In this document: positions 62,292-64,000 of the stretch, one piece after another
Layout: every line of letters begins with the position of its first letter
How positions within the stretch are numbered: the stretch's first letter is position 1
NCBI GenBank assembly: GCA_964444755.1
Contig: CAYUIF010000016.1
Coordinates: 5,902 to 69,901, forward strand
Direction of reading: 5' to 3'
Length of the DNA: 64,000 nucleotides
Source of the DNA: an uncultured Alphaproteobacteria bacterium
Lineage (GTDB): Bacteria; Electryoneota; RPQS01
Made by a program: the position numbers and the translations under genes
The notes under the pieces: model-generated
The model's database searches: none
The model's input: the letters and a program-made list of their open reading frames with translations, nothing else
What the model was told of the DNA's origin: nothing

Positions 62292-63122
62292 TTAGGTCGT
62301 GCAGGTGAGCGATGCGTTGTTAGCGGGGGCAATCAGCTGCGGATAAATTTGAGCCGGATCCAGCAGCATAATGAACTTGTCAGAACCTTTCTGCGGCAGC
62401 AAGCCGATCAATCCGCCGAAATCTTCGATACCCGGAATGCTGTCGGGAGCCTGGATTTCGTCCGCAGTGCAGGAAACCACCGCATCAATCTCATCCACAG
62501 CCACCCCCAGCGGACGCGTCGTGCTGCCAACCACGATCAGACTCAACTGATCATTGGTTTCCACTTCGGTGATCGCTTCGTGGAACAGCCGGATCATCTG
62601 CGCCAGCACGGTCGTGCGGGTATGCTGGATTAGCGCCAGCGCTTTCTCGTGTTCCCCTTTGCTCTGCAACTCAGTAGCTTCAATCGCTACGGCATGAATC
62701 GCCTTATGGGGTGCATCGAATAGACCTAATAGGCGGCGCAGCCACACGTTGGGTGCCTGATAGCTATCGTACCATTGACCAAACTTGCATTTATGCGGGT
62801 CGGTTGCCAGTGTGAATTCACGATTCTCAGTAATGCTGGCTTCCAACTCTTTCAACCAATTCTCATGATCAACTTGCCGGGCGCGTAAGAGCGCGTTCAA
62901 TTCCACGGCTTCATCCACCTTCGATCGAACTCCGAAACGCTGCGCCAGATCGAAAATCGGAATTGTTTTCGATCGCAGCACGATCACTCCCATGTTATCC
63001 GCGGCGGAATGAGGTACCGGATGAACGCGCGGCAAACGTAGCATCTCACGGACATATTCGATTTCAAAACCGAAGGTCTCCTCCCCGACTTTGAACGTAA
63101 CCCATTGAGAATTAACTGACAT
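62292..63122 (-). CDS. CheW-like chemotaxis coupling protein with inserted CZB (chemoreceptor zinc-binding) domain
   Basis: Start at MSVNSQWVTFKVGEE. CheW N-half, then CZB insert (DHENWLKEL...DPHKCKFGQWY...PHKAIHAV: H/C/H/H zinc ligands), then CheW C-half (LGVAVDEIDAVV...FIMLLDPAQI). Confidence 0.7.
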   Translation of the reverse strand: MSVNSQWVTFKVGEETFGFEIEYVREMLRLPRVHPVPHSAADNMGVIVLRSKTIPIFDLAQRFGVRSKVDEAVELNALLRARQVDHENWLKELEASITENREFTLATDPHKCKFGQWYDSYQAPNVWLRRLLGLFDAPHKAIHAVAIEATELQSKGEHEKALALIQHTRTTVLAQMIRLFHEAITEVETNDQLSLIVVGSTTRPLGVAVDEIDAVVSCTADEIQAPDSIPGIEDFGGLIGLLPQKGSDKFIMLLDPAQIYPQLIAPANNASLTCTT

Positions 63123-63330
63123 GATAGGGGTCTCCGACGAAAGTGCCCACTTTTGACTGATGACGCAAATGGGTAGGGTGTAACATGCCGTACGTCCGGA
63201 TGGTAAGGCAATCACGCAAATACTAAGAATTGATATTCCTGATATTACCGACTCAACCGGACGGAATTGCGTAACTCATTACTCATTAGTGCGAATAATA
63301 TGCCACACCCTTGCAGATGATAGAGGGGGC

Positions 63331-63364
63331 TAAAAAATTACCGCTTCAAGAGGAAACGGTAATG
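63331..63364 (-). terminator. Rho-independent terminator of upstream CheW-CZB paralog
   Basis: Minus strand: ATTACCGtttcctcttgaagCGGTAAT followed by TTTTTTA. Confidence 0.7.
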
Positions 63365-63390
63365 ATTATTAAGGTGCGGATCTAACTGGC

Positions 63391-64000
63391 TCAAACGGTG
63401 ATTTGTTCGCGGCTCTGGCCGATGAGCTGCGGATAGAGTTGGGCGGGATCAAGCAGCATGATGAAGCGATCCGTACCTTTTTCCGGAAGCAGTCCGATTA
63501 AGCCTCCAAACTGCTCAATCCCCGGAATGCTATCCGGCGATTGGATGTCCTGGTCCTCACAGCGAACCACCGCGCTGATGGAATCCACGGCGACTCCCAG
63601 GGTACAACACGCGCTGCCGACGACGATCAGGCTGGCGCGGGCATTTTCCCGCACCTGCAGCGCGGCTTCGTTGAAGAGCTGGATCAACTGATGGAGCACG
63701 ATATATCCGGCCGACAGCACCTTTTCCGCTTCCGCATGTTGGTTTTGTTTCATCAGTTCCACCGCTTCGGCACCCACAGCATGAATCCGTTTATGGGGTT
63801 CGTTAAAGTGTTTCAGCGTTCGGGAAAAAGCCACGTCTTCCGTCGTATAGTGATCGTACCATTTTCCGAATTTGCACTGATGCGGATCAACGGTTAATGT
63901 AAATTCTTCCTTCTCGTGGATACAGCGTTCCAGTTCGCTCAACCATGCTTCATGGTCGGCTTGCCGGGCTTTCAGCAAATCCACGATTTCTTCCGCCTCC
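63391..64000 (-). CDS. CheW-CZB paralog (N-terminus beyond window end)
   Basis: ORF open to window edge. Same CZB (DHEAWLSEL...DPHQCKFGKWY...PHKRIHAV) and CheW C-half (LGVAVDSISAVV...FIMLLDPAQL) as 62292..63122. Confidence 0.6.
   Translation of the reverse strand, partial: EAEEIVDLLKARQADHEAWLSELERCIHEKEEFTLTVDPHQCKFGKWYDHYTTEDVAFSRTLKHFNEPHKRIHAVGAEAVELMKQNQHAEAEKVLSAGYIVLHQLIQLFNEAALQVRENARASLIVVGSACCTLGVAVDSISAVVRCEDQDIQSPDSIPGIEQFGGLIGLLPEKGTDRFIMLLDPAQLYPQLIGQSREQITV

What the first reader, a model, noticed from the sequence alone, without database searches (positions are those of the whole stretch)
62292..64000. CheW domain interrupted by an inserted CZB zinc-sensing domain, in two tandem paralogs
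Both minus-strand genes have the same layout: CheW N-terminal subdomain (VTFKVGEETFGFEIEYVREM...IFDL), then a complete CZB domain with the H-x3-W...C-x-F-G-x-W...H-x3-H ligand set, then the CheW C-terminal subdomain (LGVAVDEIDAVV...FIMLLDPAQIY). CZB is usually an appendage of MCPs or diguanylate cyclases. Its insertion inside the CheW coupling-protein fold would place a zinc/redox sensor directly in the chemoreceptor-CheA scaffold. Each gene has its own terminator, and they are ~60% identical. This suggests duplication and divergence of a sensor-coupler.
Basis: partly seen in the sequence, partly recalled or inferred. Interest (0 to 1): 0.55.

Follow-up and report, generated by a model that had tools for sequence, protein, structure and literature searches.

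The report
CheW coupling protein with nested CZB sensor
Two adjacent genes encode chemotaxis coupling proteins (CheW) with a zinc-binding sensor domain (CZB) inserted in a surface loop; the layout is real, but it belongs to a large, already named and untested protein class, so it is moderately interesting rather than new.

Summary
Gene 1 (62292-63122, minus strand, 276 aa) is a complete CheW domain split by a ~130-residue CZB four-helix bundle. The profile aligns to E. coli CheW 15-79, then DgcZ CZB, then CheW 82-154. AlphaFold gives pLDDT 94.9. Gene 2 (63391 to beyond 64000) is cut by the window end, so its N-terminal CheW part is not visible. A ~98% identical Calditrichota contig shows it has the same layout and the same predicted fold.

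The insertion lies inside CheW subdomain 2, between beta5/helix and beta6, not between the two subdomains.

The architecture is not rare. About 1,600 clusters at 50% identity match at E<=1e-30. Hits come from up to 538 species genomes in more than 15 phyla. All four zinc ligands are kept in 212 of 214 members, and the CheW Gly57/Arg62 equivalents are essentially invariant. "CheW-CZB" is already named as a class in two papers, without experiments; I found no description of the nested topology.

The genes are orphans. The 64-kb window has no CheA, MCP, CheR or CheB, and related loci share no che neighbourhood.

Most likely function (inferred): an accessory coupling protein that feeds zinc/redox state into chemosensory arrays. 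New member of a known kind.

The parts
62292..63122 (-). Gene 1: complete CheW[CZB] protein, 276 aa including the stop codon in the coordinates
   Evidence: It is 99% identical to P0001, annotated 'chemotaxis protein CheW [Calditrichota bacterium]'. Against L001 there are 21 synonymous and 4 non-synonymous codon differences.
62937..63113 (-). Gene 1, CheW N-terminal segment, residues 4-62: beta1-beta5 plus a short helix. This is the first part of subdomain 1 and the first three strands of subdomain 2.
   Evidence: Pfam CheW profile positions 1-65. It aligns to E. coli CheW 15-79. DSSP strands are 4-12, 15-20, 24-29, 43-49 and 52-58, with a helix at 59-62. G45 and R50 correspond to E. coli G57 and R62.
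62544..62936 (-). Gene 1, inserted CZB four-helix bundle, residues 63-193. Zinc-ligand codons: H86 at 62865-62867, C112 at 62787-62789, H139 at 62706-62708, H143 at 62694-62696.
   Evidence: Pfam CZB on residues 86-149. DgcZ CZB (3t9o) aligns to profile 73-165. Helices are 68-98, 113-133 (kinked), 136-154 and 158-190, with pLDDT 96-99. Foldseek against 3t9o gives TMt 0.63-0.65.
62346..62543 (-). Gene 1, CheW C-terminal segment, residues 194-259: beta6-beta10. This is the rest of subdomain 2 and the second part of subdomain 1.
   Evidence: It aligns to E. coli CheW 82-154. Strands are 194-199, 204-209, 211-219, 238-243 and 250-254. D210 is invariant and corresponds to E. coli D103.
62241..62266 (-). 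Terminator-like hairpin plus T-run, 26 nt after the gene 1 stop. It lies between the convergent gene 1 and rsgA.
   Evidence: 11 pairs, 8 of them G-C.
63123..63390 (-). 268-nt spacer between gene 2 and gene 1. It contains the gene 2 terminator-like hairpin at 63337-63363.
   Evidence: No Rfam match. Promoter-like matches are at chance level.
63391..64000 (-). Gene 2: paralogous CheW[CZB]. Only residues ~71-272 lie in the window: CZB at 63634-64000 and the CheW C-terminal segment at 63436-63633. The N-terminal ~70 residues lie beyond the window end.
   Evidence: The fragment is 200/202 identical to P0015, 272 aa. The full gene is seen in L001 at 7562-8380. The AlphaFold model of P0015 has pLDDT 94.9 and the same element order.
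61326..62237 (+). Convergent downstream neighbour, the ribosome-biogenesis GTPase RsgA. It is not part of the system but marks its boundary.
   Evidence: Pfam RsgA_GTPase E=2.6e-43. The same neighbour is present in L003.

Best explanation
Each gene encodes a stand-alone coupling protein of the 'CheW-CZB' class. It is a full CheW double-barrel with a CZB zinc-binding four-helix bundle (3 His + 1 Cys) nested in the loop between the beta5/short-helix element and beta6 of subdomain 2.

Shown here:
- the topology;
- the high-confidence fold;
- short junctions of 3-5 residues on both sides of the insert;
- near-invariance of the zinc ligands;
- near-invariance of the CheW residues equivalent to E. 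coli V36, E38, G57, R62 and D103;
- a tightly constrained insert length;
- purifying selection.

Inferred mechanism. The CheW part occupies a CheW position in a chemosensory array, contacting the receptor tip and CheA P5. The CZB part reports cytoplasmic zinc or oxidant state. Published work on DgcZ and TlpD describes an order (zinc-bound, reduced Cys) to disorder (zinc-free or Cys-SOH) transition that propagates to the first and last CZB helices. Here both of those helices are spliced directly into the CheW subdomain that carries R62 and forms interface 1 with CheA P5. Zinc or redox state would therefore change coupling strength or kinase control without passing through a receptor. CZB-mediated dimerisation, homo- or between the two paralogs, may in addition tie two CheW units together.

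The genes are accessory and orphan. They are expected to work alongside che genes encoded elsewhere in the genome.
For: Topology: Pfam split CheW plus CZB; PDB profile alignment to CheW 15-79, DgcZ 7-103 and CheW 82-154.

Fold: AlphaFold pLDDT 94.9 and pTM 0.86-0.87 for both paralogs, with pLDDT 93-97 across both junctions. Foldseek matches CheW chains at TMt 0.76-0.85 across the gap and DgcZ CZB at 0.63-0.65.

Conservation in 214 family members: four ligands in 212/214, G45 in 214/214, R50 in 213/214, D210 in 212/214, V24 in 184, E26 in 154. Insert length is 128-145 residues, median 131.

Family size and spread: 1,603 clusters at E<=1e-30, and the top 150 hits are mostly single full-length matches. 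Up to 538 species genomes are hit, and all 86 held loci contain a full-length member.

Selection: 21 synonymous versus 4 non-synonymous codon changes against L001.

CZB signalling model and the idea of CheW-borne sensing: PMC8262984 and PMC10653840.

Subdomain 2 carries R62, and P5 subdomain 1 makes interface 1. That CheW subdomain 2 is the partner at interface 1 is established knowledge.
Against: There is no experimental datum for any CheW-CZB protein.

No CheA, MCP, CheR or CheB is found among ORFs of 180 aa or more in the 64-kb window. Of 150 genes flanking family members in other genomes, only 3 are MCPs, 2 are CheW, 6 are receivers and 5 carry HATPase_c. Array membership therefore rests on residue conservation alone.

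I could not place the model in an array structure, so a steric clash of the CZB bundle with receptors or P5 is not excluded.

The oligomeric state is unknown. CZB domains pair directly in DgcZ but not in TlpD.

The physiological ligand in an environmental Calditrichota organism is unknown. It could be zinc, HOCl or another oxidant or electrophile.
Confidence: 0.6

Rival explanations
1. Structural cross-linker, not a sensor. The CZB bundle is a constitutively zinc-loaded dimerisation module. Its only role is to tie two CheW domains together, altering array geometry or stability in the way multi-CheW proteins do. Zinc and redox state do not act as a signal.
For: CZB domains form the homodimer interface in DgcZ. 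They bind zinc in the low- to sub-femtomolar range (PMC8262984), which would keep them saturated. Natural CheW - CheW[CZB] - CheW proteins exist, showing that the module occurs in multivalent scaffolds.
Against: The reactive Cys is kept in 213/214 members, and the conserved loop around it (F103, L105, D108, P109, H110) is invariant or nearly so. A purely structural zinc site would tolerate His/Cys swaps. In both characterised CZB proteins the site is regulatory.
Confidence: 0.15
2. It acts off the array or outside chemotaxis. One version is a zinc/redox-controlled decoy that sequesters CheA or receptors. Another is an adaptor in a Che-like pathway that controls something other than flagellar motility, such as type IV pili, gliding, biofilm or development.
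For: The gene location is orphan and there is no conserved che neighbourhood. In the Calditrichota-like clade the only recurrent neighbours are a divergent pyridine-nucleotide-disulfide-family flavoprotein and rsgA. Host phyla include many without classical flagellar chemotaxis.
Against: The receptor- and CheA-contact residues of CheW are conserved as in canonical CheW. Orphan location is also common for accessory CheW and CheV genes (general knowledge, not tested here).
Confidence: 0.2
3. Artefact or ordinary fusion. This could be an assembly chimera, a frameshifted pair of genes, or a simple CZB-CheW terminal fusion whose N-terminal piece is not CheW.
For: None found.
Against: It is a single uninterrupted ORF. 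The same layout is present in an independent ~98% identical assembly and in a Logan read assembly. It is also present in all 96 word-index homologs and in the great majority of the 150 best exhaustive-search hits. The N-terminal piece matches CheW profile 1-65 and E. coli CheW 15-79.
Confidence: 0.01

Closest known systems
'CheW-CZB' architecture class (Perkins et al. 2021, mBio, PMC8262984; listed again by Muok et al. 2023, PMC10653840)
   Same: It has the same two Pfam domains in one small soluble protein, and the 3His/1Cys core is kept. Position 2 of the Cys motif is Ala or Lys (109 A and 87 K of 214). This agrees with the paper's note that the position is Ala or poorly conserved in CheW-CZB.
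   Different: [quoted passage not shown] In the text I could read, they do not state that the CZB is nested inside the CheW fold. They also do not describe its orphan genomic position or its breadth in Desulfobacterota, Acidobacteriota, Nitrospinota, Planctomycetota, Calditrichota and KSB1. Figures are not held, so Fig. 6A may show the topology.
Canonical CheW (E. coli 2HO9/6S1K, T. maritima 1K0S/2CH4, T. tengcongensis 2QDL)
   Same: The complete two-barrel fold is present, with TMt 0.76-0.85. G57, R62, D70, R72 and D103 equivalents are conserved.
   Different: It has a ~130-residue helical insertion between E. coli positions 79 and 82. It is not encoded with cheA, cheY or MCP genes here.
CZB domains of DgcZ (3T9O/4H54) and TlpD
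   Same: It has the same ligand motif and a four-helix bundle with a kinked second helix.
   Different: In DgcZ and TlpD the CZB is terminal and joined to the output domain at one end only. Here both ends are spliced into the output domain.
CheWS of Treponema denticola (CheW + CheR-like SAM sensor; PMC10653840)
   Same: The concept is the same: a coupling protein that itself carries a sensory domain and feeds a signal into the array.
   Different: The sensor domain and ligand differ. CheWS is a C-terminal fusion rather than a nested insertion. There is no sequence relationship outside the CheW domain.
CheV (CheW + receiver domain)
   Same: It is an accessory coupling protein whose coupling is modulated by an attached regulatory domain.
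   Different: No receiver domain is detected. Regulation would be by metal or redox state rather than by phosphorylation.

Membership tests
CheW-like domain (PF01584) | Sequence match over the whole domain above the curated threshold | tested here: met
   81 bits against a cutoff of 23.5, in two stretches that together cover the profile. Both halves align to E. coli CheW 15-79 and 82-154.
CheW-like domain (PF01584) | Two intertwined five-stranded beta-barrel subdomains | tested here: met
   The AlphaFold model has ten strands in the CheW order. Foldseek gives TMt 0.76-0.85 to solved CheW chains.
CheW-like domain (PF01584) | Conserved Gly57/Arg62 (E. coli numbering) and hydrophobic receptor-groove residues | tested here: met
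   G45 in 214/214, R50 in 213/214, V24 in 184/214, E26 in 154/214.
CheW (functional coupling protein) | Binds CheA P5 and receptor tips, and is incorporated in arrays | not testable with these tools
   This needs biochemistry, cryo-ET or complex modelling.
CheW (functional coupling protein) | Encoded with or near che/MCP genes | tested here: not met
   No CheA, MCP, CheR or CheB among ORFs of 180 aa or more in the 64-kb window. Only 3 MCP, 2 CheW and 5 HATPase_c proteins among 150 flanking genes in other genomes. This is a usual but not obligatory feature.
CZB domain (PF13682) | Hxx[WFYL]...Cx[LFMVI]Gx[WFLVI]...HxxxH motif (3His/1Cys) | tested here: met
   H86/W89, C112-K-F-G-Q-W117 and H139/H143 in gene 1, and the same in gene 2. 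Pfam gives 47-52 bits against a cutoff of 29.4.
CZB domain (PF13682) | Four-helix bundle fold as in DgcZ and TlpD | tested here: met
   Helices 68-98, 113-133, 136-154 and 158-190. 3t9o matches with TMt 0.63-0.65 and probability 1.00.
CZB domain (PF13682) | Binds one zinc ion per monomer; the Cys is oxidant-reactive | not testable with these tools
   This needs metal analysis and dimedone or mass-spectrometry assays.
CheW-CZB architecture class (PMC8262984) | A CheW-like domain and a CZB domain in one protein, without MCP, GGDEF or EAL domains | tested here: met
   These are the only two Pfam families found. All 96 homologs carry PF01584 plus PF13682.
CheV | CheW-like domain followed by a receiver domain | tested here: not met
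   No Response_reg match at E<=1.

The most novel reading that the evidence does not exclude
The nested CZB makes the coupling protein itself a receptor-independent input. Zinc or redox state, read by a bundle whose two ends are both welded into CheW subdomain 2, switches CheA coupling directly. CZB-mediated pairing ties two CheW positions together, so that the signal also changes array connectivity. In this lineage the pairing would be between the two tandem paralogs, as a heterodimer. This would be a second, mechanistically distinct example, after CheWS, of sensing at the baseplate rather than at the receptor. It would be present in more than 15 phyla.
Probability: 0.3. Interest if true: 0.6.

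Novelty: new member of a known kind. Interest (0 to 1): 0.33.

Why it matters
Chemotaxis signals are classically thought to enter through receptors. CheV and the recently described CheWS show that the coupling layer can also be regulated. A zinc/redox sensor built into CheW would add a widespread third case: about 1,600 sequence clusters across many environmental phyla. The domain-in-domain geometry gives an unusually direct allosteric path, which makes it attractive for structural work. For this window specifically, the value is modest. The genes are ordinary members of that class, they are already deposited and annotated as CheW, and nothing nearby helps to assign a pathway.

Tried and rejected
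2. Draper et al. 2011, the original CZB paper, is not held.
3. I searched the papers for a description of the nested topology and found none. The sources were the CheW-CZB term search, the two Vass/Bourret/Foster CheW-domain preprints, the BLAST XVIII review and the TlpD structure preprint.
4. I looked for a conserved operon partner by scanning 150 flanking genes with Pfam. The result was heterogeneous (147 families; the most frequent, Response_reg, matched only 6 of the 150 genes), so the hypothesis that the gene sits in a che operon was rejected.
5. I looked for che genes in the whole window with four Pfam calls covering 40 ORFs and found none. ORFs shorter than 180 aa outside 58-64 kb, such as a cheY, were not scanned.
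6. Rfam on 61000-64000 gave no match. Sigma-70 promoter matches were at chance level.
7. I tried to decide by NJ tree whether the duplication predates the split from the L003 lineage. Upstream copies (P0015, P0003) and downstream copies (P0001, P0017) tend to separate, but the branching is poorly resolved. I make no firm claim.
8. A literature search for chemotaxis in Calditrichota was uninformative.
9. I considered mapping E. coli V87/V88 onto the junction. The aligned residues in gene 1 are S194 and L195, so I dropped that argument.
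Full report
**What is at the coordinates.**
The minus strand of 62292-64000 holds one complete gene and most of a second.
- Gene 1 runs from the ATG at 63122 to the stop at 62292 and encodes 276 aa. The longer GTG-initiated ORF is an over-extension: homologs begin MSxxSQWV, and a GGAG lies 9 nt upstream of the ATG.
- Gene 2 ends at 63391 and runs off the window end, so only residues ~71-272 are present.
- A public Calditrichota MAG contig (L001, GCA_049322395.1) is ~98% identical in DNA over the shared 1.8 kb. 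It supplies the missing 5' end: the full protein is P0015, 272 aa, 200/202 identical to the window fragment.
- The window therefore very probably comes from the same or a sister species of Calditrichota.

**Domain topology.**
- Pfam finds CheW in two stretches in gene 1. The first covers profile positions 1-65 on residues 6-70. CZB lies between the two stretches, on residues 86-149.
- Gene 2's fragment shows CZB followed by CheW profile positions 51-133. Its full-length ortholog shows CheW 6-69 and CZB 86-150.
- The cleanest evidence is a profile of 58 family members searched against PDB sequences. Profile 6-70 aligns to E. coli CheW 15-79, profile 192-266 aligns to CheW 82-154, and profile 73-165 aligns to the DgcZ CZB domain 7-103.
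- So about 120-130 residues are inserted between CheW positions 79 and 82, with no loss of CheW sequence.

**Structure.**
- AlphaFold2 with that alignment gives pLDDT 94.9 and pTM 0.86 for gene 1, and 94.9 and 0.87 for P0015. The element order is identical in both.
- The order is five strands (4-58), a short helix (59-62), four long helices (68-98, a kinked 113-133, 136-154, 158-190), then five strands (194-254).
- The junctions are only 3-5 residues long and remain at pLDDT 93-97.
- Foldseek matches solved CheW chains across the gap (TMt 0.76-0.85, E down to 1e-9). It matches the DgcZ CZB crystal structure at TMt 0.63-0.65.
- The kinked second helix matches the description of the TlpD CZB as a four-helix bundle with two nearly continuous helices.

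**Where in CheW the insert sits.**
- R62 lies in CheW subdomain 2.
- In the homologous CheA P5 domain, subdomain 2 is the central ~65 residues, flanked by the two parts of subdomain 1. P5 subdomain 1 forms interface 1 within the core unit.
- By this mapping the insertion at E. coli 79/82 falls inside subdomain 2, between its third and fourth strands.
- Subdomain 2 of CheW is the partner of P5 subdomain 1 at interface 1 (established knowledge).
- I could not superpose the model on an array structure, so the direction in which the bundle projects is unknown.

**Is it a family?**
- All 96 homologs from the word-index search carry both Pfam domains and are ~265-300 aa. All have the CZB motif at about residues 86-146.
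- An exhaustive HMM search of 1.84 billion cluster representatives gives 1,603 proteins at E<=1e-30. The top 150 are nearly all single end-to-end matches of 255-300 aa.
- A scan of one genome per GTDB species finds 538 relatives. The best 80 come from Desulfobacterota, Acidobacteriota, Nitrospinota, Planctomycetota, Hydrogenedentota, Spirochaetota, Campylobacterota (Arcobacter), Firmicutes (Eubacteriaceae, Syntrophomonadaceae), Omnitrophota, Eisenbacteria, Armatimonadota, Gemmatimonadota, Verrucomicrobiota, Fibrobacterota and others. Weaker hits among the 538 could include other CZB proteins.
- Each of the 86 held loci contains a full-length member.
- In 214 members aligned to the profile:
  - all four zinc ligands are present in 212;
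  - W89, F114, G115 and W117 are invariant;
  - the CheW residues equivalent to E. coli G57, R62, D70, R72 and D103 are present in 204-214;
  - V36 and E38 equivalents are present in 184 and 154;
  - the insert length is held to 128-145 residues (median 131).
- Between the window and L001, gene 1 differs at 21 synonymous and 4 non-synonymous codons.
- Both halves of the chimera are thus under constraint.

**Genomic context.**
- Gene 1 converges on rsgA at 61326-62237.
- In L001 a pyridine-nucleotide-disulfide-family flavoprotein lies upstream of gene 2 and is divergently transcribed. It resembles ferredoxin or rubredoxin reductases but falls below all NCBIfam cutoffs.
- The same order, flavoprotein then two CheW[CZB] genes then rsgA, is kept in a lineage only ~60% identical in protein (L003). 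A third relative (L007) has the flavoprotein and a single copy.
- Pfam scans of 40 ORFs covering the window found no CheA, MCP, CheR, CheB or further CheW. The window encodes a cbb3 oxidase cluster, an ACIII-like complex, a 2-oxoacid dehydrogenase complex and many T9SS cargo proteins.
- Across other genomes, the nearest upstream and downstream genes (150 in all) fall into 147 families. Only 3 are MCPs, 2 CheW, 6 receivers and 5 HATPase_c proteins.
- The gene is therefore typically an orphan.
- Tandem duplication is confined to the Calditrichota-like clade and one other locus, L038.
- Paralog identity is 56-58%. A neighbour-joining tree loosely groups upstream copies and downstream copies separately, hinting at an old duplication, but it is poorly resolved.
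- Each gene is followed by a hairpin and T-run, and a 268-nt spacer separates them. Separate transcription is likely but inferred.

**Mechanism.**
- Published work on DgcZ and TlpD shows that zinc binding rigidifies the CZB.
- Oxidation of the ligand Cys to sulfenic acid lowers zinc affinity and unfolds the alpha2-alpha3 region.
- The resulting order-to-disorder change is transmitted through the first and last helices to the attached output domain.
- In CheW[CZB] both of those helices are connected by very short linkers to strands of the CheW subdomain that holds R62 and faces CheA P5.
- The best-supported reading is therefore an accessory coupling protein whose coupling depends on cytoplasmic zinc or oxidant state. 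That is a sensory input at the baseplate.
- Muok et al. already suggested this for CheW fusions in general.
- Steps shown here: topology, fold, and conservation of both functional surfaces.
- Steps inferred: zinc binding, array incorporation, allosteric effect, ligand identity and oligomeric state.
- Rivals:
  - a purely structural zinc-stabilised cross-linker;
  - an off-array or non-chemotaxis role, which the orphan context keeps alive;
  - an artefact, which is excluded.

**Comparison with what is known, and novelty.**
- 'CheW-CZB' is an acknowledged architecture: 1.4% of CZB proteins in PMC8262984, listed as previously identified in PMC10653840.
- The window's proteins are 99% identical to deposited sequences annotated as CheW.
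- I found no experiment on any member and no explicit statement of the nested topology in the texts available. Figures are not held.
- The finding is thus a correct reading of a real and neat domain-in-domain protein, but it is a new member of a known kind.

Noticed in passing
Proteins P0097, P0098, P0100, P0103, P0105, P0110, P0120, P0131, P0136, P0152 and others (not in the window): These are 600-770-aa proteins with three or more CheW domains. The middle or second domain carries the same nested CZB, giving CheW - CheW[CZB] - CheW. Pfam shows 4-5 CheW stretches plus CZB at about residues 265-336.
   Followed up: partly
L001 6208-7434 (just beyond the window end, divergent from gene 2); also L003 8593-9813 and L007 8534-9766: A 406-410-aa Pyr_redox_2 flavoprotein is conserved next to CheW[CZB] in the Calditrichota-like clade. 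Its best NCBIfam matches are HcaD, NirB-N, NorW and CoA-disulfide reductase, all below cutoff. A redox enzyme beside a redox-sensor domain may be a functional link or just synteny.
   Followed up: partly
window 9350-16429 (-): A cbb3-type cytochrome oxidase cluster with CcoN and CcoO fused in one 718-aa ORF (COX1 + FixO, 11609-13765). It also has FixP (10789-11430), FixG (9350-10792) and a heavy-metal P-type ATPase (13976-16429).
   Followed up: no
window 19-5205 (+): Fer4_11, NrfD and two c-type cytochrome genes, with an unassigned 396-aa ORF (3113-4303). This looks like part of an Alternative Complex III-type module cut by the window start.
   Followed up: no
window 17454-22935 (-): A complete 2-oxoacid dehydrogenase operon: E1 alpha, E1 beta, E2, E3 and a lipoate-protein ligase.
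   Followed up: no
window 6278-8086, 29820-33146, 41827-43305, 46182-47468, 48055-49350, 56824-59244: Six proteins carry the T9SS C-terminal sorting domain (Por_Secre_tail). They include an FG-GAP protein, a C25 peptidase and a Laminin_G_3 protein. A 1164-aa S8 subtilase (26036-29530) has a FlgD_ig-like tail.
   Followed up: no
window 35348-38389 (+), 59288-60439 (-), 60634-61311 (+), 24542-25453 (-), 8151-8915 (-): Sizeable ORFs of 1013, 383, 225, 303 and 254 aa have no Pfam match. The 383-aa and 225-aa ORFs also have no NCBIfam match.
   Followed up: partly
L042 13114-14715: In a Desulfurivibrionaceae MAG, a 533-aa protein two genes downstream of CheW[CZB] also matches the CZB part of the profile (positions 84-193). 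It is probably a CZB-bearing chemoreceptor, so two CZB proteins sit in one locus.
   Followed up: no
window 33641-35032 (-): Two adjacent nitroreductase-family paralogs of 236 and 222 aa. A peroxiredoxin (AhpC/TSA) lies at 45443-46075.
   Followed up: no
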